A stretch of DNA of 64,000 nucleotides. Source: Naegleria gruberi (lineage: Eukaryota). The notes under the pieces were generated by a model that saw only the letters and a list, made by a program, of their open reading frames with translations, made no database searches and had not been told where the DNA came from. The position numbers and the translations under genes are program-made. The stretch lies in the NCBI GenBank assembly GCA_000004985.1, contig GG738869.1. One strand, 5' to 3'. Position 1 is the first letter of the stretch. The number at the start of each line of letters is the position of its first letter. This document shows positions 17,005 to 34,371 of this stretch, one piece after another.

Positions 17005-18012
17005 ATGGTGACTACCAATAACAACAAGGAAACATCGGTCGCTTCAACAGAGAAGAAGCCAGTTGCTGTGACTACCAACAAGATTAGACAAAAGTTAAAG
17101 CAAATGAACAAACAAACAAAATCAACGGTTACAAATAGTGATAGTACCAATTCTAAATTCCACAACAAACAAAGAACTTTGATTTTATCTTCACGAGGTA
17201 TTCATGCTAAACATAGACATTTATTGAAGGATCTTCGTACCTTGTTACCTCACACTAAAACCGAAAGTAAATTCTCTAAAGAAGGAATAGATGAAGGAGA
17301 TTTGGTTAAAAAACTTCACAGACTTCAAAAGATTGACCACATTGCTGCTGCTTTGAAATGTCCAAATATTTTGTACTTTGAAGTTGATAAGGAATCAGCA
17401 GATACAGAATTGTTTTTATGGATGTCAAAGACTTCAACTGGACCTTCTATGAGATTTAAAGTTGAAAATATCAGTACTATGAATGAATTGAATCTTATCG
17501 GAAATTGTTTGAAATATTCAAGACCATTATTACATTTCGACAAAACATTTGACAATATTGAAGGCGAAGATAAGCTTACTCATCTCCCATTGATTAAGGA
17601 ATTATTAACACAAACTTTCTCTACACCACTTAATCATCCAAAATCAAAACCATTCTTTGATCACATGTTTGCTTTCTATTATTTGGATGGAAGAGTTTGG
17701 TTCAGAAATTATCAAATTGTTACAAAACAATCAAGCCAAGGAGTTGCATTGACTGGTTCCCAAAAACATGAATATTCTCTTGTTGAAATTGGACCTAGAT
17801 TTGTTCTCAAGTTGACTAAGATTCTCAATGGTTCTTTCGATGGTAGAGTTATTTTCAATAGTGATTCACACTTTGTTTCAAAGGCTGAAGTTCAAAGATT
17901 GGAAAGCATTAAACTTGACCTCGACAAGCAAAAAAAGACTGAAAAACACAGAAAGTACTTAGAATTGAGAAAGCCAGCTGATGCTGATGAAGTGAGTTCT
18001 GTTTTCAATTAA
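17005..18012 (+). CDS. BRX1: Ribosome biogenesis protein BRX1 (Brix domain)
   Basis: 'RTLILSSRGIHAKHRHLLKDLRTLLPHTKTESKF...' is the Brix/IMP4 sigma-70-like fold signature. Length 335 aa is typical. Confidence 0.85.
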   Translation: MVTTNNNKETSVASTEKKPVAVTTNKIRQKLKQMNKQTKSTVTNSDSTNSKFHNKQRTLILSSRGIHAKHRHLLKDLRTLLPHTKTESKFSKEGIDEGDLVKKLHRLQKIDHIAAALKCPNILYFEVDKESADTELFLWMSKTSTGPSMRFKVENISTMNELNLIGNCLKYSRPLLHFDKTFDNIEGEDKLTHLPLIKELLTQTFSTPLNHPKSKPFFDHMFAFYYLDGRVWFRNYQIVTKQSSQGVALTGSQKHEYSLVEIGPRFVLKLTKILNGSFDGRVIFNSDSHFVSKAEVQRLESIKLDLDKQKKTEKHRKYLELRKPADADEVSSVFN

Positions 18013-19559
18013 AAGTTTTTTCAAAAAACTGCTGTACTGATTTTTTTCAATATTCCCTAAAGCTCCTCACCTAAAGCAATAATAAGGACTTTGTGAGCGG
18101 ATTTTGAATGATATTGGAGCAAAATTTGTCGTGCCCAACTCAATTTTCCATCACTACAAGATATTAATCACCGCGTTTCATTTTGCTTTTTGTAATAAAA
18201 GTTGTAAAGTTATGACGTTGGATAGCTTTATAGAAAAAAATACCATCACCAACTGACAAACCAAAAATTATTACCTCCCAACAATAATTAGTAACATCAC
18301 ATCCTACCTCGTCTCTTAGGTTGAGTTCTTTTATAAGAAAGTTCTTTTCATGTAGAGGTGTTTTATAATTATTCCAAAATTGAAGTAATTGTTTTACTAC
18401 GAGGTAAACTCACAACAAATTCTCAAGGAGATGATGTTGTGTTTTGGGATGTAATGTTTCTTATTATGTCAGAAAACATCTAGTAAGGAATGATTTATTT
18501 AGAAGAAGAACAACAACAATATTTAGAAGATATAAAACCATCACTGTGGGCTGATGATTTTCAGCAATAATTTAGAGAGACCAAACAAAAAATGATTTAA
18601 TATTGCAACATACAAACACACCACTTCAGCACCAACAGCAAGTAATCGTCTATGGAAAACTTCATCAAAGAGGGTCTCCTTTTTTTCATCACTAAATTCT
18701 ATTGATGAAGCATCATGACTATATCCGAGGATTGTGAAACAACAACCAACAGCAGGCTTTTACGATGATTCCGCACATTTGAATGAAGTATTAGTTTAGA
18801 TCAACTGGTACTGAAAAGGAGAAAAAGTATGCTGCTTGTTTGGCTCCTACCTCATCACTTGCTGTTGCTTTTTGTTATTTACTCCTGAATGCGTTGCTAT
18901 CTTATATATGATTGTGATGTGTTTAATTAATAAGTTGGAGTGGGAGCAGCAACAGGGTAATAAATGTAAGTACCTACGATTTATTTGAAATTTTACCTTA
19001 ATTCCATTTCATAATTGACACCATGGAACATTTAAGGTGAAATCTTCACCAAAATAATAATTTGAAATAGTCAGTTTTGGAAAATGATGTCAGAGAATTT
19101 GATATTTATGAGTGTAATCTTTTCACATTTCAATTTGGTTGGTGCTATACATTCCATCATCAAGACTTAAGGTCCTGCCATTAATTAGAAACTGTGATGC
19201 AAGAAATAGTAACTGTTGTTGATGGAACTGTTTTAGAAGATTTAGCAAGTATTAATGTTGTCTACACAACAGCAACTGTTGCCATCTAAATCCTTACAAC
19301 TCTGAAGGTGAATTCATTTTGAAATATGATCCTCCAAGGGAAACTATGTTCATTCTCACTGATTAAAAGCTGATTTTACCGTTTGATTTGAGTGTAGACA
19401 TTTACAATAGATGATTCTCTTACACATACAGAGGTGAAAGAGATGCACTGATGATGTTCTTTCAACTCTTCAGTTTTGACTCAAGTCAAATTGTCTATTC
19501 AGTGGAAGGTATGGATGAGTTATCTATATAGTAGACACTTATAACTTTAGAATTAGAAA

Positions 19560-20100
19560 GCTATCAATTACCAATAAGACTATCATATTTATTACTTATC
19601 GGTGGACAAGAAGAAGGAAAACTTTGGAAATGAATATTACTGATACTCTTGCTCAACCAACAGGACTTGCTTTTTTCAGAATTCTGAACATGCTTCAATT
19701 AACACCATTCCATATACATTGCCTACAAGTTTTACATCAAGATTGTCAATGATCTTACAATAATTGCAAGATCTAGTGCTCCACCAACTCCAGGTCTGAG
19801 TTAGCAGCTCCTGTTCCTACTCTCAATACAACTATTGCCCCAACAAGTATTGCAGTTGGTGAGGATGGAAAAGTAACACACCCTCAAAATGTTAACACCT
19901 GCTCCAACCTGAACAATTTTTGTCGTGGCTAATACTGGATAATATCGGTCCTATTGAGGATGATGGCTTGGCTATTAGTTCTTCATTTATTACTGTTTCC
20001 TCTGAGGAGATTATTCTTGCTGATTGTATGAACAATAGAATTAGAAAGATTTGTGGAGAGGGAGTCATTACTACCAGTGGCTAATGCCTATGACTAAGAG
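19560..20100 (+). pseudogene. Degenerate NHL-repeat gene relic, paralogous to the NHL/EGF/kinase receptor at 30615..34371
   Basis: Several frames carry NHL-like pieces interrupted by stops: 'PIEDDGLAISSSFITVSSEEIILADCMNNRIRKICGEGVITTSG*', 'ITDTLAQPTGLAFFRIL', 'TIAPTSIAVGEDGKVTHPQN'. Compare 'GNRIRKI...TVCGNG' in the intact gene. No long ORF. Confidence 0.3.
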
Positions 20101-21329
20101 AGATGTTTGAAAGTAATTGACCTAACCTTTCATTTTGCGTATTGTATGGAATGAAATGTCTCTAGTCAAAGAAGTGTTTTTGAGAATTGTGAATAGTGCT
20201 TCAGTGATCGTTTGGGCTCTTGTTGATGGTAAGGAAATGAGTAGAGATATCAAAAAGATTGCATATGATTTTGCCTTCTTTACTATTGATGTTTCACAAG
20301 TTTGCCAAGGAATTGTAGTCATTCAAGTTATGTTAATATTCGTAAAAAAATTGAGAAAATGACTCTTTGCCACCTTGCTGATTTTCGAAGTGGTTTCTCA
20401 GCACCAAACTTTCACATCATCATCTAAACATCAATTTAGTAGTAATATAGTAATTTTTATTGGAGTATTTTCTTCATTATTTTGGAATTTATCTTCATGA
20501 TGAAAAATCACAAGTTGATGAATCATCAGAACATTATTGTTGTTTTCCATCAATATAATAATTTTATTTGTGGAAATTAATATATAGTAATGAAATTACA
20601 CTAAAATCTTCATCACCGTTGGATTTAATGGAAAAGTTGGAAAACTATTAATGTGGCATTGTTGGAAATGGACAATAGTATGATATAAAACTTTGTTTGA
20701 TCACTTTTCATCAAGTATTGATAGAGATAGGTACATGTGAATTTTGAAAACTAACATGAACATTACTCCATGTGTACTTCAACCAACTTGAATACAATCT
20801 TATAGAACTACTAGTACTATTTAAATCACGAATAAACACCATATTCATCATCAAATATTCGTCATCTTGTCGATTACGGAATTTCATTCCACCAGTGTTG
20901 ATTCGGGCCCAACAACAAAATATTAACAATAAAACAATTACCAATACTATTGTTTACATGTTTTATGTTAAATGATCGTAACGATCATCAAGATCATCCT
21001 GTTTTTATTGCATTTCTCATGATAATCAGAAATGTCACAGAGAGTGCCACATATCCATTCTACTCTCAATAAATAATAGTTCCTTTTTACACATGTGCAA
21101 CTTTGCTTATAAACATGATGAATTCATATATTAAAGACTCCAAAGGCTAGTATAATCCTCAATGTGATGTCTAATAATACCATTACAACTTAAAGATAAT
21201 TATCTTATAATTTCATTGAATATGAATTGAATTTGTAAATTGACATAAAACAGTGGTTTATTGTAATTTGGTTTAAAAATAGCTTTCTAAAGCACCTTGT
21301 TGTATCTTGTTGTGACATTTACTAAAAAA

Positions 21330-22385
21330 ATGGCAAAAGCACCAGCACAAATTGTTATGGAGAACAAATTGCGGAAATCATTAACATTAAAACAATTCAT
21401 AGAATTATCCAAGTCTACAAGAAAAAGGAGATTAGATAATCTTCGTAAGAAATTCTTTAATTCAAATTTATTTAAATATTCTTGGAGTAAATGGCGAGAT
21501 GCTATTATCGGAACAAACAATTCAATCCAATATTTATTAAAACAAAGAAAAAACATAAAAAATAATTTATCAACATCTACAATTGATACAATAATTCAAC
21601 AATTAAAAGAGGAAAGGAACAAATCTACAAAAAAAGAATCCAAAAAAGATTTTGAAAAAAAAATTAATAATTTATTACAATCTAAAAATTTATTCAAAAT
21701 CAATGTTAATTTGATATTATGTAGTAATTTGGCTAATACTATTCAACTAATGTTTTTAAGAAATATACTTCCCGAAAATACCACTACTGAGGTAACCAAT
21801 ATATTGGATAAAATTAACCAAAGAAGATCAAAGGAAAATTATTATATAGGAAGTTGGGGAAAGAGTTCTTCTTTTCTATTTAAAACTAATGACACTATTT
21901 TTAATGAATTATCTTCTCAATTTATTAAAATTATTAATTTATTAAAAAATTATGTTTTGGAAATATTGAAATTTGGAAATAACAAGATGAGGAAATTCTT
22001 AGAAAAATACAATAGTAGTGATTTTTTATCAATTTATCCGACAGTGTGTTTTAATTTTTTGGATAAATCTGTAGATGAAAATAGAATTCTACATATTCAT
22101 CCGGATAAGGAAGACACTGGAACTAGTCTAATTTTTTACTTTGGAAAGTTTAAAGGTGGAGCAATCTCATTTCCTGAATTAAATTTTAAGCTTATGGTTC
22201 AATCAGCAGATGTTTTATTGTTTGATGGTAAGAATAATTTACATGCTGTTGAATCACTTCATGGTAAAGATGATGTTAGATATTCCGTTGTATTCTTTGC
22301 TCATAAAGCAGACTTGGGTAAAACTAGTTATCCCATGAATAGAGGAGAAGTTATGAAAGGTATTAAGAATAAAATCAATAATTAA
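21330..22385 (+). CDS. Tet/JBP-family 2-oxoglutarate/Fe(II) dioxygenase (Naegleria Tet-like 5-methylcytosine dioxygenase paralogue)
   Basis: The C-terminal half 'HIHPDKEDTGTSLIFYFGKFKGGAISFPELNFKLMVQSADVLLFDGKNNLHAVESLHGKDDVRYSVVFFAHKADLGKT' carries an HxD...H iron triad. It is near-collinear with the NgTet1 core as I recall it (HKDNLD..SLFYFGNF..GYLEL..VFVQPGDVLFFKGNEYKHVVANI..GLVYFAHKGSKT). The first ATG is at 21330 (MAKAPAQ); the track start at 21297 is non-ATG. The gene is strongly AT-rich. Confidence 0.65.
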   Translation: MAKAPAQIVMENKLRKSLTLKQFIELSKSTRKRRLDNLRKKFFNSNLFKYSWSKWRDAIIGTNNSIQYLLKQRKNIKNNLSTSTIDTIIQQLKEERNKSTKKESKKDFEKKINNLLQSKNLFKINVNLILCSNLANTIQLMFLRNILPENTTTEVTNILDKINQRRSKENYYIGSWGKSSSFLFKTNDTIFNELSSQFIKIINLLKNYVLEILKFGNNKMRKFLEKYNSSDFLSIYPTVCFNFLDKSVDENRILHIHPDKEDTGTSLIFYFGKFKGGAISFPELNFKLMVQSADVLLFDGKNNLHAVESLHGKDDVRYSVVFFAHKADLGKTSYPMNRGEVMKGIKNKINN

Positions 22386-24134
22386 ATTTTAAATAATTAT
22401 TTAAATAATTTTTATAAATAATTTAATTGTATTAAAAAAATGTCTCCACACTTTAACCTCGAATTTTATTCGAGAAGCACAACAGTAATAGATGAAAGCA
22501 CTCTCGGTGGGCTTGATTTGATAATAACACACTTATACATCCTCTTGTAGGAGTATAATTAGTGTTGTTGTTGTGAGTTGAGGACGTTATTTTAATTCCT
22601 TTTCCCTTCTTCCAAAGTTTCCTGTTCAAACTTTGTTGCTTCCGTAAATCATATTATCAACAGGAAAGATCATTTAACTGCGAGCATCGTTGTTGGATAC
22701 AAACTATGCATTGACAATTCTTTTAATTATCTTGAATGTTTGGTAATTGATGGCAATGTTCATATAATCAACTCTCACCAAAGAAGAATTCTAAAATATA
22801 TCTAATGATCAGGCTGTTGATTTTCAACAACATACAGGTATTCGGAGCTATTGTAAAATAATTGTTTTACTTTGATGATTCAAATGGTTTTCAACAACTA
22901 ACATAATTCTTATCCATCTTGCAAAAAAAGAGGATACCATGACAGCAATCAACTTATATCAATATTGAAAAATCATTAGGAAATTATTCAGAAGTAGCAT
23001 GCATTGTAATTGTTGCGTTCAAAACATTTCTCAACATTAAATTCTTTCTCCACAATCAAACCCTGCTCAGCAACAATCAGAAGAGGAGCCATCTTTTAAT
23101 CTAACTTGCCATCTATGTTGAAGGAATGTACATTTAGAAATCAGTGATGTTCACCCTGAATGTGATGGATCTTTTTCTGGCTACTTGTATTGGTTGCTCC
23201 AGTAATTGCACATATGGAGGCTCTTTTAATGTTTCCAATAACCAAACTATGCTGGTGATTCCACTCCCAACCAAAACCCTATCAAAAAGAATTCTTCTAT
23301 ACAACTAGTATGAGTCATAGAGCTGTTGTCTTTCGTCCACTTTTAATAATAATATATGGTATGCTTTTGTTCAGGCTGTAATGTTTCGAGTGCAATTCAA
23401 CACCAGTGTTTTCATTCCAACCATGATTGGATCATATCTCCAAAGAGGACACTGGGTATTATTACTATTTAAAGTTGGCTACTAATAGTGAAATCTACTT
23501 GTTCGATCCAATGTTGGATGCCAAGTTCACTAGTGCTGAGCTGGCTATTGATATTTCAGATATCCTTTTTGTTTGTTGTCACTACCACCCTATTATTCAA
23601 CTTCTAGGTTTACGTTTCAAGAATCATGGGTTTATTTGGTTTAAGATGTTATGTTTCAGTATTCACGTAAATATGATGCAAGGAGGACACTTATTGCTGC
23701 TGTGGTGGTAATAGTAGCATTACCTTAGGTGTTGTAGTGTATACTACTTCATCATCTATTAATACTTATTCTCCAATTACTCAAACAAAGACAATTTCAA
23801 TCAACATTCACTATGTCAGTGCTTAATTATTCCAAGTTGTACTAAAACAACATCACTAACAAGGTGCTAAACAACTATGCTTTCCATTTCAACGCAGAGG
23901 CATATGTCTTGCGTTTGGGGCAGAGATTTAGTGCTTGAATAGTGGTTAAACAACAATGGATGGGCATTTTGGCAACTGGTTTTCAGTAGCTTCACATTCA
24001 TGTTGTTTGACTTAACAAACACTTTGGCTGCAATCTATTCACTCTTTATCCATCATTTATTCATCATTTACACCAATACTGTATTGTTTACATTTTGTAT
24101 GCTAGCTGGTTATTATTATTAATCATTAAAAAAA

Positions 24135-26864
24135 ATGGGAGTAGCGACACTTTTTACCAAAGCTGACGTTTTAAATTCCCACAACATCAAAAAGCAAAAA
24201 GAAACCAAACGTCCTGCCTTTGAAGGTGATAATGATAGATCGATTGTGGCGGCAATTAAAAAAACAAAACAACAAGCATCCAACGACTTTGAGTATTACA
24301 AGACATACAAAGAAACAGATTTCACTAATGAACAGAATTTTAGTTCAATAATTTATCAGATAATGCTAGTTCTATTGCCCTATTTTGTTTTTAAAATAAC
24401 CTCAGGATTATTAGATTTTGAATCAATATTATTATACTTTCTAGTCTCCACAAAAAAAGGCAAAGATTTATTAGCACAAGCCAATCTATATAGTACTGAG
24501 GGTGTTTCTTGGTGTGAAGCAATAGTATTTAAAGCAATTTGTAATGCAGATATAAGTATAGGGAGTTATGGTAGATTTATTGGTTGTTTAGAAGAATCTA
24601 GTAAATCAGACACATCCAGAAATAAGAAAAAGGCAAGACATTTTTTACCATCACTCTCTACAATAACAAAATATTCAAGTAGTTTACATCAAGTATTAGA
24701 TATCAATCATGCTGCAGATAGCGAAGGACTTTATTGGAGAATATTTTGTTCATCCATAGAACTTAATGACAGGACATTCAGATATGCAACGCTTCAAAAT
24801 GCAGAATTGTTTTTATTCTCATTTATTCGCTACCATGAAATGATCATAGGAGAATATATCTTCTTTGTAAAGATAAGATGTACTGTTGATGGTTCACCTT
24901 TAGAGGGAGCCTGTACTGCGTATGATATTGTATTAATTCATCCCAAGATAGATCCATTTTGTGCTCGTAATTATATTTCTGTTATTATTGCCGAGCCTAA
25001 AGAGGAAATAGCGTTCAAATTAAACATCTGGGATTTCTCTCGCCAGTTAATGCGTATCACACAGTTGAAATACTCTGTACCTAATGAAGAAACAAGAATT
25101 ATTCCTGTAAAATTTATTACCAACCCTGATAAGGGCGCCTTTAACAAAATTATAGATGTGGAAAAGGTAACGCCAATTTGTGATCCTATTTTTAATTTGG
25201 TAAATCTTTATTGCCTATTATCAATGATTTTCAATACAGATAATTCCTTAATACTACCTCTAATTCCAACAATAAGAGGAGATTGTAATAATGATAGCAA
25301 CAAAGCAAAAGGACAAGCAAATCTAGCAAAGGTTATGGAAATTAAAAAGATTATGCCTGAAACGTTACCTTATTACCACAACATTCCAACAAAATCCCAA
25401 ATATTTACTGATTTTCAATTAGATGAAGATTCTATTTTTTTAATTGAAAAATTTATCATTAAGAAACCTCAAACAGATTATTTATGTTGTATGTTTTGTT
25501 ATTTAACTAAACAAACAAAAAGAATAGCATTGAAGTATCCTGATTTGTGTACATGGAAATGGTACAGATCAAACGAAAGCTCAAGTAATGCTTTAGGCTG
25601 GCCTTTTAAAAGTTTTTCATGGTGTCTTTCGCATGATATAAGAGCCTGTGGTCAGAATCTTATTGAAGAAGAGGTGGGACAAATTGAAGAAGATAGACAA
25701 TATTTTGCCAAATTATTCAGTTCTGAATCTCCAATTGCCTCTTTGAAATGTGGTTCTAAAAAGCTAATTAATGAACAACTAGATGCCAACCTTGTTTCTG
25801 AATTTGAGTTTTGTCAATGGAGTGTATTTGAATTAAAGGTGAAAGAAGAAAAAAAGAAAAACAAAACAGGAACAGAGCTACGAACTAGTTCAGTTAAACT
25901 AATCTATGATCAGATTTTGTTTAAACAAATAGACAAAATTATAATGACAATAGATGTTTGGTATCCTCATTGGCTCACATATCGAGAAAACAAACAATTA
26001 CAGGTTTGTCAATCCCTTAACAATAATCAATCATTTGAAGATTGTACAAATGAAGAACACTCCAAGCGAGGAACATACAAACCAAAAAACTATGAACATA
26101 TATGGAAAGCTCTTCAAAAAACATACATTACTCTTCGCCAACCAAAATCTAAATGGTTAGAATGGAAGAAAACTGGATATCAAGAGCCATTGCTAATATT
26201 TAAGAATTTAAATAAGGTTTGGATAAAAGATATTTTAGGAAGAATATCAGAATATTTACACATTCATCAACATGCAGATATTGTGTTCGATGAAGTAGAA
26301 GAATCATTCGTAACAACATCAAACATTGGATCTGAATCTAAAAATTCTTTAAGAAGGAAGCGTCATGTTTCATTTGGAGTTAATGGTGGTTTAAGACATC
26401 CTTGTGATGATTCTTTATATTATGACAGCAAAAGAATTCTTAATGAATTGAAGATCCTTGCTGAGACTCCTAATATTATTGCAAGACAAGATGAGATCAA
26501 AAGAAAACAAGTTTCCGAAAAAGAAAAACTCACACAACCAAAAAAGAAAAGAAAATCTGAAACTACTACACAACCCAATCCAATAAGCTCAACCAATTCC
26601 TCAATTAATTATATCAATCCTTCCCTATTACAACCTCTACTTCCAGATAATTTTAATTCAATTACATTACACAATCAACACTCCTTCTCACCTCCTATAT
26701 ATATTCATCCTCTTCAACTCCAACCTCCACTAACTAACAATTTAACATTTTCTCAATTCAATCCTTCTCAAAATTCCAATAACCAACCAACATCTCCTTA
26801 CCAACCATCATCTCCATTTTCATTCTTTTCATCCTCCAATCCATCACCAAACTCCTTTTTATAA
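24135..26864 (+). CDS. Orphan 909-aa protein, N/K/I-rich, with a Cys-cluster ('YLCCMFCYL...CTWKW...WCLSHDIRAC') and a Pro/Ser/Gln-rich tail
   Basis: Uninterrupted ORF with ATG at 24135. No recognisable family by eye. Its composition matches the adjacent Tet gene and differs from flanking housekeeping genes. Confidence 0.55.
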   Translation: MGVATLFTKADVLNSHNIKKQKETKRPAFEGDNDRSIVAAIKKTKQQASNDFEYYKTYKETDFTNEQNFSSIIYQIMLVLLPYFVFKITSGLLDFESILLYFLVSTKKGKDLLAQANLYSTEGVSWCEAIVFKAICNADISIGSYGRFIGCLEESSKSDTSRNKKKARHFLPSLSTITKYSSSLHQVLDINHAADSEGLYWRIFCSSIELNDRTFRYATLQNAELFLFSFIRYHEMIIGEYIFFVKIRCTVDGSPLEGACTAYDIVLIHPKIDPFCARNYISVIIAEPKEEIAFKLNIWDFSRQLMRITQLKYSVPNEETRIIPVKFITNPDKGAFNKIIDVEKVTPICDPIFNLVNLYCLLSMIFNTDNSLILPLIPTIRGDCNNDSNKAKGQANLAKVMEIKKIMPETLPYYHNIPTKSQIFTDFQLDEDSIFLIEKFIIKKPQTDYLCCMFCYLTKQTKRIALKYPDLCTWKWYRSNESSSNALGWPFKSFSWCLSHDIRACGQNLIEEEVGQIEEDRQYFAKLFSSESPIASLKCGSKKLINEQLDANLVSEFEFCQWSVFELKVKEEKKKNKTGTELRTSSVKLIYDQILFKQIDKIIMTIDVWYPHWLTYRENKQLQVCQSLNNNQSFEDCTNEEHSKRGTYKPKNYEHIWKALQKTYITLRQPKSKWLEWKKTGYQEPLLIFKNLNKVWIKDILGRISEYLHIHQHADIVFDEVEESFVTTSNIGSESKNSLRRKRHVSFGVNGGLRHPCDDSLYYDSKRILNELKILAETPNIIARQDEIKRKQVSEKEKLTQPKKKRKSETTTQPNPISSTNSSINYINPSLLQPLLPDNFNSITLHNQHSFSPPIYIHPLQLQPPLTNNLTFSQFNPSQNSNNQPTSPYQPSSPFSFFSSSNPSPNSFL

Positions 26865-26897
26865 AATAAAAGGAATAATTTAAATTATAATAATTGT

Positions 26898-27659
26898 TTA
26901 ATATTTATTCCATTTAACAGATTCATCAAGCATAGAGCAGAAATAATCAAATTCAATTCTAATCATCTTCTCTTCAGGTTTGTAAATTAATTTAAATTGA
27001 TTAATTCCAAATTTCCATAAAATACCATCATGCTCCCATTTAAATGCATACCACTTATCACTAAACAAAGGAGGAAGGCTATAATTTCCAGCAAACAACC
27101 AATGATATGTTATCTTTGGAACTATTCTTCCTTCCCTTGCAATGCCACCCTCAATCAACATCTCTTCTTTTAAAATGCTATATGGTTTTGCCTTTTGTAT
27201 TTGATAATCAAAGAATAGCTTTGCTTCGTGATCATCTGTTACAGAAACATAATGTTGATGATGCCACTTGACATTATGGGTTGTATCTGGCTGAGCATTT
27301 CTAATAACTACCTCCTCAATAGTTCTCGGAAGTACCTTTAGGTATCTTGTTGCATAATATTCATCAGAATATTTTTCATCCATTATCTCACGCAGTGTTA
27401 TTGTTGGTAGGGAAGTATCAAAAAAGTATTCAAGTTGTTGTCTTTTCTCTAATGGTATGTTCACTTTCTTACTCTCTTCACTGCCTTCAAGAATGTTTGT
27501 TACTTGGCGTTTAGCTGTTTTCAAATCATCAACCTTCTCTACAACAAAACGTATTTTGTTTGTATTGTTATTCTTCTCCAACGATTTATTCATAGCTACC
27601 CTCTTACTTTTGCTCAACCTGTATACTTCAAACGTTACTTCTGTTTTGTTGGTGACCAT
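26898..27659 (-). CDS. Hypothetical protein (253 aa)
   Basis: ATG at 27659. Its stop is only 34 bp from the stop of the convergent 909-aa gene. No family assignment. Confidence 0.5.
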   Translation of the reverse strand: MVTNKTEVTFEVYRLSKSKRVAMNKSLEKNNNTNKIRFVVEKVDDLKTAKRQVTNILEGSEESKKVNIPLEKRQQLEYFFDTSLPTITLREIMDEKYSDEYYATRYLKVLPRTIEEVVIRNAQPDTTHNVKWHHQHYVSVTDDHEAKLFFDYQIQKAKPYSILKEEMLIEGGIAREGRIVPKITYHWLFAGNYSLPPLFSDKWYAFKWEHDGILWKFGINQFKLIYKPEEKMIRIEFDYFCSMLDESVKWNKY

Positions 27660-28045
27660 AGAAAATACTTGTTTGTTTTGTTTTGATTTTGTTGTTGCTC
27701 ATGTTGTTGTTGATATGTGGTGTTGTTGATGTTATTGTATTTTTTTTTACGTGAGTTTACAAATTGAAAAACAAGCAAGAATGAAACGCGGTGAAATTAC
27801 GATCAGGATTTGAAAAAATATCAAAAAAGACGTTACATAACAAACAAACCTCGTAACCGATCATCAACACTTGTACAACTTGACTCTTAACAAGTATTGT
27901 TGTTGTGGGAAGATTTTAATCTTCGTAACAAACTTCATCATCATCCGACTTTTTTAAAAACTCTCTTATCATCATCAACAAGAAGTGATTTTGTACTAGT
28001 ATTGTATTTTGGTAGTTTAATTATAATACAAGAAGATTAACCATC

Positions 28046-30412
28046 ATGGGAGGAGAAACTGAACCATCTAACGAAGCTCTAATATCACCAATTACACCTT
28101 TTTCAACCATTATTCCAAATACCTATTCTCAACAACAAGCTAATTTTGATTCAAGTACAATATCCGAAGAGAGGAATGATGGTGATAGTATCAATAGAGT
28201 TACCTCTCTTCCACCATTACCATCATTAGACTCTCCCAAGAAAAAACCTCTTCCATCCATTAACACTCTTTCTCCACCAAGAAAGACTTCAAAACCACTC
28301 CCACCAAGACCAACACAAACCTCTACGGAAATTAATAATTTAGTATTTTCTCATCCCTCTGCTATGAATACAACTTATTCTTCCGATAATTTTACCACCA
28401 ACAATCCATCCTATCCATCCACACCTCCAAAAGTTTTGTTCCGAGATTATACTGAGAATAATTTAGAGCCAGCTTCCAGTATTAATACATATAATTACGA
28501 GTTTGCAAATATAAACCCTGAACCAATATCACATATATTTACAAATGTAGATGGTAGTATGCACCGTAGTTCCTCCTTTGCGGGTACTTTGGTCAACAGA
28601 CGTTCAATTCCTTCGAATGTTGGTTTAAACTCTATACAGGAGGAAGCTATGATTCGTACTCAAAGTTATGACAAATTTAAATTGGACGAATTAAAGAAAC
28701 AAGGATCGACTGCTGCTGGCAATAATAACGGAAATAATAATAATAAGAGACATAAGAAAATATTTTATAATACTGAATTTTTGGAGAAATGCGGATTTAG
28801 TAATAATTCTATTGAACAGCAACAAATCAAACAACTGAAACAGGATGAACTTCAAGAGGAACAGATTCGTAGAATGCATTCTGAACAAGAACAAAAAATG
28901 AAGCAAATGGAATTAGAAGAGTTGGCTCTCGTCAACCGAACTTTACAACAAGAGTTCAGTTTTTCAGAATTTTTAACTTCTCAACCAAAATACTCATGGA
29001 GTGACTTTTTTGCCCATAACAAGAATGCATTTAGTTTAATCAGAGCTATGGCATCTCAATGGTCATGGGGAGAAATGACCTTGGGACTCGAATATTTTGC
29101 AAGAAGTAAGGGCAAGATGAAACGTGATTTTACTCAATTCAAATTAGAGTCAGATTTAGAGAGACTGCCAGCTTCAAACGTTGAGGTTTGGAGACATTAT
29201 GCACGTTTAACCTATCAAGTTTTTAGAGACTCGATAGAGGACATACCAAGGAACACCCGTTTGGAACTTCACAAAATTATTGCCTACGATAGAACTCAAC
29301 AAGCCATGAGACCTGGATATTTTCTGTGTGTGGACGACTATACAAAATCGGTTCTGGTTATTTTTAGAGGAACAAAATCATTTAGTGATATTCTGACTGA
29401 TTTGCACTGCTCCTCTATTCGTTACAAACATGGATATTGTCACAAAGGAATTTTGACAGCTGCTCAATATTTTGATTCGAACAAATTCATCAAGGAAGTG
29501 GTTAAAAGAACTCTTGAGCATCATCCAGGATACAAATTAAGGTTGCTGGGTCATAGCTTGGGTGGTGGTACTGCAGCTATATTGTCCACTATGTGGAAGA
29601 AAGACTTTCCTGATATTCACTGTTATGCATTTGCATGTCCACCAGTTTTATCACAAATTTTAGCTGACGAATGTGCTGACTATGTTACAAGTTTTGTAAA
29701 TGGTGATGATTTTGTAACAAGATTATCAATGACAGCTGTTCACGAATTGAGAAAGGAAGTACAGAACTATCCTTGGAAGGAGGAAATGATGAAAGATATT
29801 CAAAACTCAACACTTGGAAAGTTTGCAGCTGGAGTTAAAAATTATGCATCTGGTTTATTTAGTGGATTATTTGGAGGTAGTAAGAAGGCAGATGTAGTAG
29901 AGCCAATCATAGAAGTTAAAAAGGATGTAATCAAGACAGAACCTATCACCACAAACATTACAACAATAAGTACAGGAGAAGATGCCAAAAGAATTGAGTA
30001 CGATCAATCTAATTCATCGATGGAGGATCAAGATATTTCCAGTTCAAGTAATGCTGATGATGTGCAGAGTACAGATGAGCCTCTTTCCTCAATCTCACAA
30101 AGCACTAATGATGATGTTTTCCCTTCTTCAGGCTCAACTGTTAAAAGAAAAGTTTCCAAAAAACCAAAGAGGAACCCAGATTCTCCACTGATTATTAATG
30201 ATTATGAAAATCTTGTTGTGACTCTCTTCCCAGCTGGTTGTGTCTATCAAATTAGAAATATTGATGACACTGTGTACATAAAAAAGGCCAATAAGGAAGA
30301 CATTACTTCCATAATTTTGAGTGACAGCTACAAGGAAGATCACAGAATGATCAACTATTTATGTAATCTTGATGCTTACAATCCAATAACAACCGAGAGT
30401 AGTGTAATATAA
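28046..30412 (+). CDS. Class-3 (fungal-type) lipase domain protein, sn-1 diacylglycerol-lipase-like
   Basis: 'RLLGHSLGGGTAAILS' is a GHSLG nucleophile elbow in lipase_3 context ('YFLCVDDYTKSVLVIFRGT', 'FVNGDDFVTRL'). There is a long low-complexity N-terminus. Confidence 0.8.
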   Translation: MGGETEPSNEALISPITPFSTIIPNTYSQQQANFDSSTISEERNDGDSINRVTSLPPLPSLDSPKKKPLPSINTLSPPRKTSKPLPPRPTQTSTEINNLVFSHPSAMNTTYSSDNFTTNNPSYPSTPPKVLFRDYTENNLEPASSINTYNYEFANINPEPISHIFTNVDGSMHRSSSFAGTLVNRRSIPSNVGLNSIQEEAMIRTQSYDKFKLDELKKQGSTAAGNNNGNNNNKRHKKIFYNTEFLEKCGFSNNSIEQQQIKQLKQDELQEEQIRRMHSEQEQKMKQMELEELALVNRTLQQEFSFSEFLTSQPKYSWSDFFAHNKNAFSLIRAMASQWSWGEMTLGLEYFARSKGKMKRDFTQFKLESDLERLPASNVEVWRHYARLTYQVFRDSIEDIPRNTRLELHKIIAYDRTQQAMRPGYFLCVDDYTKSVLVIFRGTKSFSDILTDLHCSSIRYKHGYCHKGILTAAQYFDSNKFIKEVVKRTLEHHPGYKLRLLGHSLGGGTAAILSTMWKKDFPDIHCYAFACPPVLSQILADECADYVTSFVNGDDFVTRLSMTAVHELRKEVQNYPWKEEMMKDIQNSTLGKFAAGVKNYASGLFSGLFGGSKKADVVEPIIEVKKDVIKTEPITTNITTISTGEDAKRIEYDQSNSSMEDQDISSSSNADDVQSTDEPLSSISQSTNDDVFPSSGSTVKRKVSKKPKRNPDSPLIINDYENLVVTLFPAGCVYQIRNIDDTVYIKKANKEDITSIILSDSYKEDHRMINYLCNLDAYNPITTESSVI

Positions 30413-30614
30413 TGTAAATAAAATCTCGATTTTTGACCATTAAGGAATTTAATCATTTCACAACAAACAATTAGAAAGCACAATTTTCTTTTTTTGTATT
30501 GGAAAGGGAGCAAGCAATTAATTGAACTCAATTCGGAAATATTGAGCTATAATTTTAGAATGGATGTTGTATTGGTTGTGGTTGTATGGTTGCTAAAATA
30601 ATCAATCCTACAAA

Positions 30615-33600
30615 ATGTCACAACATCAAACAACACTACAACTACTCATTTCCCTGTTTTTATTTTTGATTGTTGTTCAATGCACAGCATCAACAATGGA
30701 ATACAATACTAGTCTATCATTTGGTATTGATACACTGGTTGGCTATGATCCGAATAATGGAAATAATCTTCCTTCAATATATGCCAATTTGAATCCCAAT
30801 AATTTGACATTTGGCACGAATACAAAGATAATGTTCATGTATGATGGTGTTAGGAATGCCATCATGAAACTTGATCTGAAAACAAATCTGATTTCGAAAT
30901 TAATTGATTTAGAATATAGAGCGCTCTCAATATTAGAAACTAGAAATGGAATTTTATTTACAGATGCTCAAGGAAGGAATATTAAAATGTTGGCCAATGA
31001 TTCAATTTCTATTGTGGCAGGAACATTAACAACAGGATATTCAGGTTTGTTGATCTTGGGATGATTTTATTTTAAACTAATATTTGATATTAAAAGGGGA
31101 TGGAATTGCAAACGAAACGAAACTAAACTCTCCAAAGGGATTAATTGAGGATGGTAATGGAAATATTTATTTCATCGATTACTATAATTATAGATTGAGG
31201 AAATTATCAGGTAATATGATTTCAACAATAGCTGGTGATGGAAAGAATGAAAATAATGGAGATGGAGGATCAGCTCTAAAGGCCAACTTGAAAAATCCTT
31301 CCAATCTGGCACTAATTGACCACAACTTATACATTTTATGTGATACAGCAATAAGGAGAATTGATTTAATCACAAGTAAGATTTACAGTTTCTCAGTTGA
31401 AAGTCCATTCAAATTTACTGGAATTTTCCAAGCCAATGGAACAATTTTTGTTCACTCTGCTACTGCAATTGGTAAAATTCAATCCAATCAGAAGATTTCT
31501 ATCATTTCCGGATCAGCATCTGTATCGGGTCCTTCTGTAAATAATATTCCAGCAATTGATGCCTTATTCAAACAAATAAGTTCAATTGGGGTACTTTCGT
31601 CTGAGTTAGGGGATGTTATTTATGTTTATGATTCTTCAAATAATGATATTAGGGTTATTAATGAGACTCGTTTTATTAATCTGTTGGCTGGTGTTAAATC
31701 TTTGAAAGCAAATGTGGATTTATCGGCTCCTTATTTTATTTCTAATGATCCAATTGGACTTGCTGAGCTGATTAATGGTGATTTAGCCTTTTCGCATTCA
31801 GGTGGAATTGCCAAATATTCCAATGGATTGATAACAAACATAGTCGAATCTTCTAGCCCAATATTAGGAATTGCTTTCTATGAGAAAGAGGATGAGCTCT
31901 ATTATGTGGATTCGAACTCAAAAATTAAAAAGCTCAAAGATGGAGAAACGATACACGTAGCAGGAGCATCGAATGGACAAAATGCAGACAACATTCCAGC
32001 ATCAAAAGCATTACTTTCCTCTCCGTATGGAATTTCAATAGATCAAAGCAATGGAGACATTTATTTCACTGAACAATCAGGAAATAGAATACGAAAGATT
32101 TCTCAAGGAATTTTAACAACAGTTTGTGGAAATGGTCAAGCAGGAGATTCTGGAGATAAAGGGGAGTCCATTAAGGCACTAGTGAATAATCCAAGTGGAA
32201 TTCAGTTTACACAAAATGGAGAGATTTATTTCGCTGATTCAGGTAATAATCGTATTCGAAAGATTGTGAACGGTACCATTAACACAGTTGCTGGGGCAAA
32301 TGTTTGTAATGCTAAGGAAGGATCAAAAATGGCCACTGAAACGGTGTTGAGAAATCCAACTTTCGTTTATGTCTATCCGAATGGTGATTTTCTCATAACA
32401 GAAACAAACTCTCATTTGGTGAGAAGAGTTTCAAAAGGATTTATTTACACTATTGCAGGTACTGGACTATCTGGAGAGGGACCTGATTCAGTTCTGGCTC
32501 TTCAATCAGCTTTAACAAGTCCCAAGTCAATCATTCATTCATTTTCAATGAAACGAGTTGTACTAGTTGATAAGACCAATAGAGTGAGAATCTTAACTCC
32601 TTATTGTGAAGAGGGATATGTATTAGATGTTTATGGAGCATTCTGCATTCCTTTCTGTTTTGGAATTCTTGCAAATGATACAAATACTTGCTCTGGAAAG
32701 GGAGAATGTTCTTCATTCAACAGATGTAATTGTGCAGCATCCTATGGAGGAGAACAGTGTAATATTTCTAAATGTTTTGGAGTATTGGCAACTGACTCAA
32801 AGACATGCAGTGGAAGAGGAAAATGTTTGGATGGAATTTGTGATTGTGGAGGTAAATTCATTGGAACTAATTGTGAAATTCCCATTTGCTATGGAAAAGC
32901 TTCAAACGAGAGTGAAGTTTGTGGCGCTCATGGAAAATGTTCTAATTGGAATACGTGCGAATGTTTGGATAAGTATTCAGGCAGTTCGTGTCAATATCCT
33001 ATTTGTTTCGGCATTGCTTCAACCAGCCCTACTGTTTGCAGTGGAAGAGGAGTATGTACAGGACCAGATTCTTGTAATTGTCAATCTGGATCTTCTGGTA
33101 CTATTTGTGAAGTATCGAGAGAAGAAATTGACAAACAGAATCGAGAGAGAATAATCATAATAATTAGCTCAGTTTCAGGCTCCTTATTCTTATTATTCTG
33201 CTGTATTATTTGGACAATATCGGTATTCATATTCACCAATAGAAAGCTCAACCAACGACACAATGCAGAGCTAGATATGGAAAAGAAACTTCTTGAATTT
33301 GAGTTCAATGATTCACAATCTTCAGTCAGGGAATCAGTCTACCTCTTTTCACAACACCAGAAACCATACTTGATACCAATAGAAGATATTACATTTGTTA
33401 AAAAGATTGGAATTGGAGGATTTTCAAATGTTTATTTGGGAAAGTGGAACCAGTCGTTTGTGGCTGTCAAATCTGTTGAAAATCAAGACGATAGAGCTGA
33501 TGATGTATTTGAAAAAGAAGCACAAACTTTGTGTGCCCTCAAACATCCAAATATTATCACTTTTTATGGAATTTCATTTTCAGAGAGCAGAAAATTGCTG

Positions 33601-34371
33601 ATTGTGGAATATTTTGAAAAGGGAAGTTTAGATAAGTACATTGAAGCACTCACTACAAGGAAGATTAATTGCTCTCTAGAGAAAAAGATCAATTACTTGT
33701 TGCATATTGCTAATGGAATGGCCTATCTTCACTCGTACAAACCTAATCCTATTGTTCACAGAGATTTGAAACCAGCCAATGTTTTAATGTCAGAGAATGG
33801 AATTCTCAAGATATGTGATTTTGGATTGAGTAGAAGTTTGAATTACGAAACCAAGTCAGCCATGACATCCAATATTGGAAGTTTCTATTATTTGTCTCCA
33901 GGTAAGTTGTTTTTGGGTAGTTTATAATAATTTGATCTAAATCTGAAAGAAATGTTAAATGGAAGCAATCAAAAGAAATATGCAACTGCTTTGGATGTGT
34001 TCAGTTTTTCAATCATTGCTTGGGAATTACTTTTTGAAGAGGGAAATCCATACGATTATTCCAACAGAACAAAAGTATTTTATACAATGAATGAGGAAAA
34101 ACAGCTTCGATATGAAAAACTCAGTCCATTTAATGTTCCAACTCTTGTTTCTCAAGGCCTGAGACCACCAATTCCATTCGATTCGTCCGAAAGTTGTAAA
34201 GATTGGTGTAGCTTATTCGCAACCTCTGAAAAAGAACATTATCTCATTATTTTACAATTAACTGATTTGATTAAGCGTTGTTGGGATGAAAGACCCGAAC
34301 AGAGACCTTCATTTATAGAGATTGTGAACATATTATCTCAATTCGAAACTTATTTCTCACATGATTTGTAA
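30615..34371 (+). CDS. Receptor-type protein kinase: signal peptide, NHL repeats, tenascin-type EGF repeats, TM helix and a TKL/Ser-Thr kinase domain; join(30615..31044,31097..33901,33950..34371)
   Basis: Signal peptide 'LLISLFLFLIVVQCTAS'. NHL repeats recur ('GNRIRKISQG', 'NNRIRKIVNG', 'YNYRLRKLSG'). EGF units 'CSGKGECSSFNRCNC', 'CSGRGKCLDGICDC'. TM helix 'IIIIISSVSGSLFLLFCCIIWTISVFIF'. Kinase 'HRDLKPANVL', 'DFGLSR', 'SPE|MLNG' split by intron 2. Introns are 31045..31096 (52 nt) and 33902..33949 (48 nt, GTAAGT). Total length is 3657 nt, in frame. Confidence 0.8.

What the first reader, a model, noticed from the sequence alone, without database searches (positions are those of the whole stretch)
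24135..26864. 909-aa orphan protein with Cys cluster next to the Tet gene: candidate undescribed partner/transposase
There is no recognisable domain by eye. A compact Cys/His-rich segment (YLCCMFCYL...C.W.W......WCLSHD..AC) and a long Pro/Ser/Gln tail suggest a zinc-binding nucleic-acid-interacting protein. Physical linkage to a Tet/JBP enzyme and shared odd composition make it a candidate for the enzymatic partner or the mobilising protein of the island.
Basis: inference. Interest (0 to 1): 0.5.

Follow-up and report, generated by a model that had tools for sequence, protein, structure and literature searches.

The report
Tet-carrying RAG1-like transposon in Naegleria
The "orphan" 909-residue protein is most likely the transposase of a 9.6-kb, recently mobile DNA transposon of Naegleria gruberi that carries a Tet DNA-demethylation enzyme as cargo; the transposase looks like the RAG1/Transib enzymes behind antibody gene rearrangement, yet the element inserts without the usual target-site duplication.

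Summary
The ORF is real: 24135-26864, 909 aa, N. gruberi NAEGRDRAFT_67858. Sequence methods find no domain. It belongs to a small family seen only in Heterolobosea (Naegleria, Willaertia).

The gene lies in a 9,625-bp element (18169-27793) bounded by 14-bp perfect inverted repeats, CACCGCGTTTCATT...GTG. The element also holds the Tet gene and an unannotated 253-aa gene.

A contig from a ~99% identical strain has the empty site, joined exactly at the repeat tips with no target-site duplication. Two other contigs from that sample carry the same element end at other loci. Willaertia has an 8-kb counterpart with CAC...GTG ends and the same three genes.

Sequence similarity to RAG1 or ESTA is not significant, so the fold assignment is a strong inference rather than proof. 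I rate it a new variant of a known kind.

The parts
18169..27793 (+). Whole transposon, 9,625 bp, inserted between the Brix gene (stop at 18012) and the lipase gene (ATG at 28046)
   Evidence: The empty-site contig L127 joins window 18168 directly to 27794. The TIR tips sit at exactly these positions.
18169..18208 (+). Left terminal inverted repeat. 18169-18182, CACCGCGTTTCATT, is the perfect 14-bp tip; TTGCTT and TTGTAAA blocks follow. An A-run+ATAC block starts 66 nt from the tip.
   Evidence: Local alignment score is 39 against a maximum of 36 in 150 shuffles. The 14-mer occurs exactly twice in the window, in inverted orientation; 0.17 matches are expected at <=2 mismatches.
27756..27793 (-). 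Right terminal inverted repeat, tip CACCGCGTTTCATT on the minus strand. The A-run+ATAC block starts 46 nt from the tip.
   Evidence: The same tip abuts three different flanks, in the window, L128 and L129.
21330..22385 (+). Tet/JBP dioxygenase cargo gene (NAEGRDRAFT_79850). The ATG at 21330 gives 351 aa; the mechanical ORF starts at 21297.
   Evidence: Matches NgTet1 chains 4lt5/5cg8 at E = 3e-21, with HxD, the distal H and R aligned. Pfam Tet_JBP scores 23.6 bits, below the cutoff. A 100% match to the 211-aa NCBI model is.
24135..26864 (+). ORF909 (NAEGRDRAFT_67858 / XP_002676955.1 / D2VG55): predicted RAG1/Transib-like DDE transposase
24888..24890 (+). Codon of D252 (IRCTVDGSP), proposed first catalytic Asp, at the end of a predicted beta strand
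   Evidence: D is invariant in all 5 members that cover this region.
25128..25130 (+). Codon of D332 (FITNPDKG), proposed second catalytic Asp, just after a predicted beta strand
   Evidence: PD is invariant in 5 of 5 members. D1-D2 spacing is 73-81 aa.
25488..25499 (+).
   Evidence: Conserved as CMFC / CGCC / CPKC / CPWC
25623..25634 (+). C497-x2-H500, an extra family-specific C(2)H motif, always 45 aa after C(2)C and followed by an acidic residue 11 aa later (E511)
26259..26273 (+). H709-x3-H713 (YLHIHQH), the H(3-4)H motif
   Evidence: Conserved in 5 of 6 members that cover the region. It is the only region that hhalign aligns to RAG1, residues 924-988.
26334..26336 (+). Codon of E734 (GSESKN), proposed catalytic Glu, 21 aa after H713
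   Evidence: (S/T)E is conserved in all members that cover the region. In RAG1, H942 to E962 is 20 aa; the sequence was verified.
26532..26861 (+). Low-complexity P/S/N/Q-rich C-terminal tail, aa 800-909; not conserved
   Evidence: partly deleted in L006
26898..27659 (-). ORF253: accessory gene of unknown fold, not in the NCBI N. gruberi protein set
   Evidence: Homologues lie next to the transposase homologue in L003, L004 and L005 and are fused to it in N. lovaniensis P0003. The exact protein is found only in ENA/Logan. Two synonymous and no non-synonymous changes separate it from the second copy.
21227..21250 (+). Internal degenerate copy of the subterminal repeat (TTGAATTTGTAAATTGACATAAAA), in left-end orientation, about 80 bp upstream of the Tet ATG
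   Evidence: 20 of 24 nt match the reverse complement of 27745-27768
18209..21226 (.). ORF-free internal DNA of the element, with no similarity to anything tested. A second such stretch is 22386-24134.

Best explanation
ORF909 is the transposase of a 9.6-kb cut-and-paste DNA transposon of Naegleria gruberi (window 18169-27793). The element has 5'-CAC...GTG-3' terminal inverted repeats. It carries three genes: a Tet/JBP dioxygenase as cargo, the transposase, and a 253-aa accessory protein.

Shown:
- The element is a discrete unit that is present or absent exactly at its repeat tips.
- It sits at a minimum of three different loci in closely related strains.
- A counterpart with the same gene set and CAC...GTG ends exists in Willaertia magna.

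Inferred (architecture): the transposase has the RAG1/Transib-type (CMCT clade) design.
- It has an RNase-H-like catalytic core with D252, D332 and E734.
- Between the second Asp and the Glu lies a large, mostly helical insertion.
- C452/C455 and H709/H713 would together hold a structural zinc ion, as C727/C730/H937/H942 do in RAG1.

Inferred (mechanism), from established RAG/Transib chemistry:
- A dimer binds the two ends and nicks next to the CAC.
- It releases a blunt-ended element and reinserts it.
- Here insertion appears to be blunt, because no target-site duplication is made.

Inferred (other genes):
- ORF253 probably helps in end recognition or assembly. In N. lovaniensis it is fused to the transposase together with two Zn2Cys6 DNA-binding modules.
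- By analogy with fungal TET-carrying transposons, the Tet cargo would oxidise 5-methylcytosine and so counteract methylation-based silencing of the element.
For: Mobility:
- The 14-bp perfect TIR tips lie at 18169 and 27793 and occur nowhere else in the window.
- Empty-site contig L127, 99% identical, joins 18168 to 27794.
- L128 and L129 carry the same right end, 99.2-99.3% identical, against two other flanks.
- L006 is an internally deleted derivative from the same sample.
- W. magna L003 has an 8,034-bp unit with 11-bp perfect TIRs (CACGGGGTGGT) enclosing the ORF253-like, ORF909-like and Tet genes.
- The 98.5-99% identical second copy, L005, starts exactly at that tip.

Transposase assignment:
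- The family conserves D, D, C(2)C, H(3-4)H and E with fixed spacing. This is the CMCT signature as stated in PMC12730594.
- The AF2 models give a beta1(D)-beta2-beta3-alpha1-beta4(D) order.
- hhalign's only alignment to the RAG1 core is the H..H..E motif region. phmmer links RAG1 to HzTransib through that same region alone.

Partnership with ORF253: adjacency or fusion in 5 of 6 loci.

Both ORFs are intact in a second copy, with 6 non-synonymous and 6 synonymous changes in total.
Against: - Both AF2 models are poor (mean pLDDT 47.8 and 47.7), and both used essentially the same 8-9-sequence alignment.
- Sequence similarity to RAG1 or ESTA is not significant. hhalign gives E about 0.3. The family HMM scores real RAG1 and ESTA-10_MLP no better than 400 shuffled controls.
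- Pfam models find nothing.
- Foldseek finds nothing significant, only weak RNase-H-like hits.
- The D2-E distance is 402 aa, against 206-253 aa in Transib and RAG1. The C(2)C lies 120 aa after D2, against 19 aa in RAG1.
- No target-site duplication is made, whereas CMCT elements make 2-5 bp.
- Only one complete copy per species was seen, and no left-end junction at a second locus.
- Catalysis, zinc binding and the roles of ORF253 and Tet are untested.
Confidence: 0.7

Rival explanations
1. ORF909 is a domesticated, transposase-derived host protein, for example a DNA-binding regulator or recombinase. It no longer moves anything, and the element is mobilised in trans or is only a relic.
For: - The family is low-copy: about one member per Naegleria species and three in W. 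magna.
- The N. lovaniensis member is a 1,159-aa fusion with two Zn2Cys6 domains and has no detectable TIRs.
- No TIRs were found at the N. fowleri locus or at the third W. magna locus.
- The catalytic-type residues are retained across genera.
Against: - The N. gruberi gene sits inside an element that has moved recently. There is an empty site, and at least three insertion sites hold copies 99% identical.
- It is the only candidate transposase in that element.
- Family members are non-syntenic between the sister species N. fowleri and N. lovaniensis.
- Several copies are decaying: frameshifts in N. fowleri, truncations in W. magna, deletions in L006.
Confidence: 0.12
2. [not shown]
For: - The family has an extra conserved C(2)H motif, like the C/D(2)H motif of hAT, MULE, P and Kolobok (the comparison is from my own knowledge of Yuan & Wessler 2011).
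- The absence of a TSD and the long D2-E spacing do not fit Transib.
Against: - RAG1L, Transib and RAG1 take ranks 1-5, with a gap to the next transposase.
- The C(2)C plus H(3-4)H pair and the CAC...GTG termini are CMCT hallmarks.
- No Pfam hAT, MULE, P, KDZ or Plavaka model matches, even weakly.
Confidence: 0.12
3. ORF909 is a zinc-binding enzymatic or targeting partner of the Tet dioxygenase. It would work with Tet on DNA base modification rather than on transposition.
For: Physical linkage to Tet in N. gruberi and in one W. magna locus. Low GC3 is shared by Tet and ORF909.
Against: - Four of six loci with a family member have no Tet within 10 kb.
- The L005 copy shares 5.2 kb with L003 but lacks Tet.
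- Nothing resembles a glycosyltransferase, methyltransferase or other base-modifying enzyme.
Confidence: 0.03

Closest known systems
Transib transposases and RAG1 / RAG1-like (HzTransib 6pqn, BbRAG1L 6b40, mouse RAG1 4wwx)
   Same: - The motif order D, D, C(2)C, H(3-4)H, E is the same.
- The H-to-E spacing is about 20 aa in both.
- The local contexts are similar: 'xDG', 'Y.H...H..E', 'ES.N'.
- The element ends start with CAC, like the heptamer of Transib TIRs and RSS.
- Both ends carry an A-rich block at unequal distance from the tip.
   Different: - There is no significant sequence similarity.
- The D2-E distance is 402 aa against 206-253.
- About 100 extra residues lie between D2 and C(2)C, and there is an extra C(2)H motif.
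- There is no target-site duplication, against 5 bp.
- The spacings of the A-rich blocks (66/46 nt in N. gruberi, 51/35 nt in W. magna) are not 12/23.
- A different accessory gene is present: ORF253, with no shown relation to RAG2.
ESTA and other TET-carrying CMCT transposons of fungi (EnSpm, Plavaka; Kojima 2025, PMC12730594; Iyer et al. 2014 for KDZ/Plavaka)
   Same: - These are DNA transposons that carry a TET/JBP dioxygenase as cargo.
- ESTA transposases are reported to be RAG1-like by HHpred.
- ESTA termini, CACCAC... and CACCGCGGG... (ESTA-10_PCor), share the first 7 nt with the N. gruberi tip CACCGCG.
- They share the C(2)C / H(3-4)H signature.
   Different: - The host is a heterolobosean protist, not a fungus.
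- No TA duplication is made, nor any other.
- The family HMM does not recognise the ESTA-10_MLP transposase.
- The Tet is of the Naegleria NgTet type.
- The extra ORF253 partner is present.
Spy elements (PIF/Harbinger-related eukaryotic DNA transposons that make no target-site duplication; from my own knowledge, Han et al. 2014)
   Same: A TIR-bounded, DDE-type element that inserts without duplicating the target.
   Different: It belongs to an unrelated transposase superfamily, and Spy inserts between AAA and TTT. Here the one fully defined site is TTAAT^AAATT.
CACTA/En-Spm two-gene organisation (TnpD transposase plus TnpA end-binding protein; from my own knowledge)
   Same: CAC... termini, subterminal repeated motifs, a transposase plus a second element-encoded protein, and a place in the CMCT clade.
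   Different: Pfam Transposase_21/24 do not match. CACTA makes a 3-bp duplication. ORF253 has no detectable similarity to TnpA.

Membership tests
[quoted passage not shown] | [quoted passage not shown] | tested here: met
   ORF909 has D332 ... C452xxC455 ... H709xxxH713 ... E734. The motifs are conserved in N. lovaniensis, N. fowleri, W. magna and metagenomic members. The definition is taken from PMC12730594.
CMCT clade of DDE transposons | DDE triad on an RNase-H-like fold | tested here: inconclusive
   Three acidic residues are invariant. The two D residues lie at the ends of predicted beta1 and beta4 in two AF2 models. However, pLDDT is about 48, model coordinates could not be inspected, and catalysis is untested.
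CMCT clade of DDE transposons | 5'-CA...TG-3' termini | tested here: met
   N. gruberi has CACCGCG...CGCGGTG, with boundaries fixed by the empty site. W. magna has CACGGGG...CCCCGTG.
CMCT clade of DDE transposons | Target-site duplication of 2-5 bp | tested here: not met
   The empty site reads GATATTAAT|AAATTACG and the filled site reads GATATTAAT[element]AAATTACG, so 0 bp is duplicated. W. magna L003 has the flanks ...CTATT / TTTCA..., with no convincing duplication.
CMCT clade of DDE transposons | Detectable sequence or profile similarity to a member family | tested here: not met
   Pfam gives 0 hits. The profile search against PDB gives no RAG1 or Transib hit. hhalign against the RAG1 core gives E = 0.3. 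The family HMM against ESTA-10_MLP and RAG1 does no better than shuffles.
Transib superfamily / RAG1 | Structural similarity of the core to solved Transib or RAG1 structures | tested here: met
   [not shown]
Transib superfamily / RAG1 | 5-bp target-site duplication | tested here: not met
   0 bp at the N. gruberi site. The Transib value comes from PMC1131882.
Transib superfamily / RAG1 | Distance from second D to E of about 206-253 aa | tested here: not met
   402 aa in ORF909, and 398-399 aa in P0003 and P0009.
Transib superfamily / RAG1 | RSS-like ends: a CAC heptamer plus an A-rich nonamer with 12/23-type spacer asymmetry | tested here: inconclusive
   CAC tips and an A-run block at unequal distance from the two tips (66 vs 46 nt in N. 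gruberi; 51 vs 35 nt in W. magna) are seen. The spacers are not 12/23, and the pattern could be simple indels in a long degenerate TIR.
KDZ (Kyakuja-Dileera-Zisupton) and Plavaka TET-associated transposases | Match to the KDZ, CxC or Plavaka Pfam models | tested here: not met
   No Pfam family matched at E<=1 for ORF909, or at E<=10 for 8 family members.
ESTA (EnSpm-like transposons with TA duplications) | TA target-site duplication and similarity to ESTA transposases | tested here: not met
   The flanks are ..AAT and AAA.., with no TA duplication. There is no HMM similarity to ESTA-10_MLP. Only the terminal heptamer CACCGCG is shared, with ESTA-10_PCor.
Mobile DNA transposon (generic) | Presence/absence polymorphism with boundaries at the TIR tips, and copies at different loci | tested here: met
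   The empty site is L127. The same end is seen against three different flanks. In W. magna the L003 and L005 copies share the exact left tip.
TET/JBP dioxygenase (the neighbouring cargo gene) | 2OG-Fe(II) dioxygenase core with HxD...H and the 2OG-binding R; similarity to NgTet1 | tested here: met
   phmmer against 4lt5/5cg8 gives E = 3e-21. HPD aligns to HKD, and the distal H and R are also aligned. Pfam Tet_JBP is a sub-threshold hit.

The most novel reading that the evidence does not exclude
Heterolobosea may harbour a previously unrecognised lineage of RAG1/Transib-like cut-and-paste transposons, with these features:
- It is still active in N. gruberi.
- It integrates bluntly, with no target-site duplication.
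- It uses a dedicated accessory protein, the ORF253 family, which is fused to the transposase in N. lovaniensis.
- It has captured Tet/JBP dioxygenases, so at least some of the well-studied Naegleria Tet paralogues are transposon cargo rather than host epigenetic genes.
Probability: 0.45. Interest if true: 0.8.

Novelty: new variant of a known kind. Interest (0 to 1): 0.7.

Why it matters
- TET/JBP genes riding on DNA transposons have so far been documented in fungi (Iyer 2014; Kojima 2025). I found no paper linking Naegleria Tet genes, Transib or KDZ elements. Here the same arrangement appears in a distant eukaryotic supergroup, and in the genus that supplied the NgTet1 structural model. That changes how the Naegleria Tet paralogues should be read.
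- RAG1/Transib-like transposases are of special interest for the origin of V(D)J recombination. A divergent protist lineage with CAC ends, a second element-encoded protein and no target duplication would widen the known mechanistic range of this fold.
- The element looks recently active. There are intact ORFs, 99% identical copies at different sites, an empty site and a deletion derivative. It could therefore be tested directly in vitro or in Naegleria.
- Practically, XP_002676955.1 / D2VG55 can be re-annotated, an unannotated gene (ORF253) added, and the truncated Tet model corrected.

Tried and rejected
- Pfam, PHROGs and PDB sequence searches of ORF909 and of the family profile found nothing.
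- The search for homologous proteins with ORF909 and with the family alignment gave no hits, not even self. The reason emerged later: the protein is clustered under a 54-aa unrelated representative.
- The KDZ/Plavaka hypothesis, my first guess from the literature, has no support from Pfam.
- No paralogue of ORF909, Tet or ORF253 exists elsewhere in the window.
- No homology was found for the ORF-free internal segments 18.2-21.2 kb and 22.4-24.1 kb.
- An initial TIR candidate, 21227-21250 / 27745-27768 (I5), turned out to be an internal subterminal repeat, not the end.
- TIR searches at L001, L002 and L004 found nothing above shuffles.
- A 14-mer TIR scan of metagenome contigs returned only chance matches.
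- hhalign and HMM comparisons with the RAG1 core and with an ESTA transposase assembled from PMC12730594 Data S1 were not significant.
- Foldseek against PDB was not significant.
- The AFDB libraries were unavailable.
- The ORF253 profile against PDB and Pfam was uninformative.
- Exact look-ups of the Brix protein and of the 211-aa Tet model found no contigs.
- dN/dS estimates rest on too few substitutions to be conclusive.
Full report
**1. The observation**

At about 0.078 stops per codon in 31% GC DNA, a 909-codon open frame is not chance.

The Cys/His-rich stretch is real. It runs ...DYLCCMFCYL...CTWKW...WCLSHD..AC, residues 448-505. So is the P/S/N/Q-rich tail, residues about 800-909.

The upstream neighbour (ORF 21297-22385) is a Tet/JBP dioxygenase. 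It matches the Naegleria Tet-like dioxygenase structures 4lt5/5cg8 at E = 3e-21, with the HxD, distal H and R aligned.

The window is Naegleria gruberi:
- The Tet ORF is 100% identical to NAEGRDRAFT_79850.
- ORF909 is XP_002676955.1 / NAEGRDRAFT_67858 / UniProt D2VG55, 'predicted protein'.
- The next gene is the lipase NAEGRDRAFT_58119.

**2. Sequence searches**

- Pfam gives nothing at E<=1, and nothing at E<=10 for eight family members.
- PHROGs gives nothing.
- PDB phmmer and profile searches give nothing relevant.
- The word-indexed protein search found nothing, not even the protein itself. The protein sits in a cluster whose representative is an unrelated 54-aa fragment.
- The exhaustive HMMER search of 1.84 billion representatives found seven proteins.

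All the named hits are heterolobosean:
- N. lovaniensis XP_044542210 (P0003, 1,159 aa).
- N. fowleri XP_044557530 (P0008).
- Three Willaertia magna proteins (P0009, P0004, P0005).

The rest are two JGI metagenome fragments and a 91%-identical ENA fragment (P0001). So the protein is not a strict orphan. It belongs to a small, lineage-restricted family.

**3. What the family conserves**

The alignments and a motif scan show a fixed series:

| Motif | Position in ORF909 | Note |
|---|---|---|
| D in 'VDG(R/S)P' | D252 | |
| D in '(N/S/C)PD' | D332 | 73-81 aa after the first D |
| C-x2-H | C497/H500 | always 45 aa after C(2)C |
| 'Y.H(I/L)..(.)H' | H709/H713 | |
| '(S/T)E' | E734 | about 21 aa after the last H |
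| 'NGG' | 750 | |

D...D...C(2)C...H(3-4)H...E is the signature given for the CMCT clade of DNA transposons and for RAG1. [quoted passage not shown]

The local contexts also resemble RAG1, whose core sequence I verified against PDB entries:

| RAG1 | ORF909 family |
|---|---|
| CDGMG | VDGSP |
| CTLC | CMFC |
| NYFHKTLAHVPEII | DY.HI..H..E.F |
| NESGNKLFRR | SESKNSLRRK |

**4. Structure**

Two AlphaFold2 runs were possible, and both models are poor. ORF909 residues 60-800 reached mean pLDDT 47.8. W. magna P0009 residues 140-715 reached 47.7. Both relied on only 8-9 aligned sequences.

Both models nevertheless predict the order beta1-beta2-(beta3)-alpha1-beta4. The first conserved D ends beta1 and the conserved PD follows beta4. 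This is the canonical RNase-H-like transposase arrangement. A long helical region follows.

Foldseek found nothing significant, only weak RNase-H-fold proteins such as Argonaute PIWI, Ty3 RNase H, Hermes, EndoV and RNase HI.

Profile-profile comparison with the RAG1 core gave one alignment. It covers the H(3-4)H...E block against RAG1 924-988, at E about 0.3. The register is right but the score is not significant. It is the same block through which phmmer links RAG1 to HzTransib.

A family HMM scored real RAG1, and an ESTA transposase that I assembled from PMC12730594 Data S1, no better than 400 shuffled sequences.

**5. The element in N. gruberi**

The gene-dense window has two ORF-free stretches around Tet: 18.0-21.3 kb and 22.4-24.1 kb.

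Aligning the DNA upstream of Tet with the reverse complement of the DNA beyond ORF253 revealed an inverted repeat. One arm is 18169-18208 and the other 27756-27793. The tip is a perfect 14-mer, CACCGCGTTTCATT. The score was 39 against a maximum of 36 in 150 shuffles.

The 14-mer occurs exactly twice in the 64 kb, in inverted orientation. At up to 2 mismatches, 0.17 matches are expected by chance.

The 9,625-bp interval holds Tet, ORF909 and, tail-to-tail with ORF909, a 253-aa ORF (26898-27659, minus strand). That ORF is absent from the NCBI protein set.

**6. Proof of mobility**

Contigs from ENA/Logan sample ERZ929261 / ERR1078381, about 99% identical to the window, settle the matter.
- L127 carries WD40-Brix-lipase, with Brix and lipase only 400 bp apart. 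It aligns to window 15150-18168 and then directly to 27794-30502. This is an empty site whose junction coincides to the base with the predicted tips.
- The empty site reads GATATTAAT|AAATTACG. The filled site reads GATATTAAT[CACCGCG...CGCGGTG]AAATTACG. No target-site duplication is made.
- L128 and L129 carry the same right end (99.2-99.3% identity, ORF253 protein identical, the last 596 aa of ORF909 intact). Beyond the tip they have two other, mutually different flanks. One flank includes a DUF2505-like ORF.
- L006, from the same sample, is a copy with three internal deletions that remove most of ORF909. This is the usual way non-autonomous derivatives arise.

Between the window copy and the L128 copy, ORF909 has 6 non-synonymous and 4 synonymous changes. 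ORF253 has 0 and 2. These are too few to measure selection, but both frames stay open.

**7. The counterpart in Willaertia and the partner gene**

tblastn over the five homologue loci found a Tet gene 3.5 kb downstream of P0009 in W. magna L003.

It also found ORF253 homologues immediately upstream of the ORF909 homologues in L003 and L005. A later search added L004. In N. lovaniensis the ORF253-like region is fused into the N-terminus of P0003, followed by two Zn2Cys6 domains.

L003 and L005 share 5.2 kb at 98.5-99% identity. The shared stretch starts exactly at CACGGGGTGGT. The reverse complement of that 11-mer recurs once, 80 bp beyond the Tet stop in L003. This defines an 8,034-bp element with CAC...GTG ends that encloses all three genes. 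Its flanks again show no convincing duplication.

Both species' ends also carry an A-run block at unequal distance from the two tips: 66 vs 46 nt in N. gruberi and 51 vs 35 nt in W. magna. That recalls heptamer-spacer-nonamer asymmetry but may be simple indels.

Other family members look like relics or derivatives:
- The N. fowleri copy has an internal stop and a C-terminal frameshift.
- L004 and L005 lack the N-terminal half.
- No TIRs were found at L001, L002 or L004.
- The N. fowleri and N. lovaniensis loci are not syntenic.

**8. Interpretation**

ORF909 is best explained as the transposase of a recently active DNA transposon that carries Tet as cargo and ORF253 as an accessory gene.
- The mobility and the boundaries are shown.
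- The transposase role and the RAG1/Transib-like (CMCT) fold are strong inferences.
- The catalytic triad, the zinc site, the function of ORF253 and the anti-silencing role of Tet are inferred by analogy. The analogies are RAG1/Transib biochemistry and fungal TET-carrying transposons (PMC12730594).

The element fails three Transib/CMCT membership features:
- It makes no target-site duplication.
- Its D2-E distance is 402 aa against 206-253 aa.
- It has no detectable sequence similarity to any member family.

I therefore do not file it in any named superfamily. I describe it as a new, Heterolobosea-restricted lineage that works like a CMCT element. ESTA elements of rust fungi are the nearest described analogue. 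They carry TET, are RAG1-like by HHpred, and have termini CACCAC... and CACCGCGGG.... They make TA duplications, however, and are not recognisably similar in sequence.

**9.

The 'mobilising protein' reading is supported. The 'zinc-binding nucleic-acid protein' reading is plausible. The 'enzymatic partner of Tet' reading is not supported, because Tet accompanies the family in only 2 of 6 loci. The conserved partner is ORF253.

Literature searches found no paper linking Naegleria Tet genes to transposons, Transib or KDZ.

Noticed in passing
window 26898-27659 (-): This 253-aa ORF is conserved next to, or fused with, the transposase family in four genomes. It is absent from the NCBI/UniProt N. 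gruberi protein set. The exact sequence is known only from ENA/Logan assemblies.
   Followed up: partly
window 21297-22385 (+): The reference model of the Tet gene (NAEGRDRAFT_79850, XP_002676954) is only 211 aa and covers 60% of the 351-aa open frame. The N-terminal 140 aa, which align with NgTet1, are missing from the annotation.
   Followed up: partly
ORF909 protein (P0011) in the protein collection: The 909-aa protein is clustered at '90% identity' under a 54-aa bacterial 'phage integrase N-terminal' fragment (P0012). This hid it from both large protein searches. It is a clustering artefact worth knowing about.
   Followed up: yes
L001 10001-13765 (N. lovaniensis XP_044542210): This is a fusion protein: an ORF253-like region, two fungal-type Zn2Cys6 clusters separated by a proline-rich repeat, then the transposase core with all catalytic-type residues. 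No TIRs were found. It may be a domesticated or self-sufficient version of the element's two proteins.
   Followed up: partly
L006 (ENA ERZ929261 contig, 957 bp) vs window 23862-26924: This is an internally deleted derivative of the element. Three deletions (24031-25941, 26021-26148, 26486-26620) remove most of the transposase ORF.
   Followed up: partly
window 21227-21250, and 18169-21226: A third, degenerate copy of the subterminal repeat lies just upstream of Tet, in left-end orientation. The 3 kb between it and the true left end has no ORFs and no homology. It could be the remnant of an older or nested copy, or a transposase-binding subterminal repeat.
   Followed up: partly
L003 18543-21763 (W. 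magna), 1.5 kb beyond the right TIR: Two adjacent genes encode SprT-like domains, one of them with Chromo and HMG-box domains as well. HMG-domain proteins accompany fungal TET-transposons according to the Iyer 2014 abstract (from memory). Whether these genes are related to the element is unknown.
   Followed up: no
L003 5030-5147 and L004 16973-17094: A 122-bp segment is 95% identical in inverted orientation between two unrelated W. magna loci. It is possibly a small repeat or MITE.
   Followed up: no
L002 9000-11800 (N. fowleri): The annotated 468-aa protein XP_044557530 is a truncated model of a decayed gene. The conserved C-terminal 'TE..H...NGG' block continues in another frame after the annotated stop, and an in-frame stop is bridged by a predicted intron.
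   Followed up: partly
window 30615-31064 and 31084-33927: The 149-aa ORF and the following 947-aa NHL/EGF/protein-kinase ORF look like one receptor-kinase gene split by a short gap, either an intron or a frameshift.
   Followed up: no
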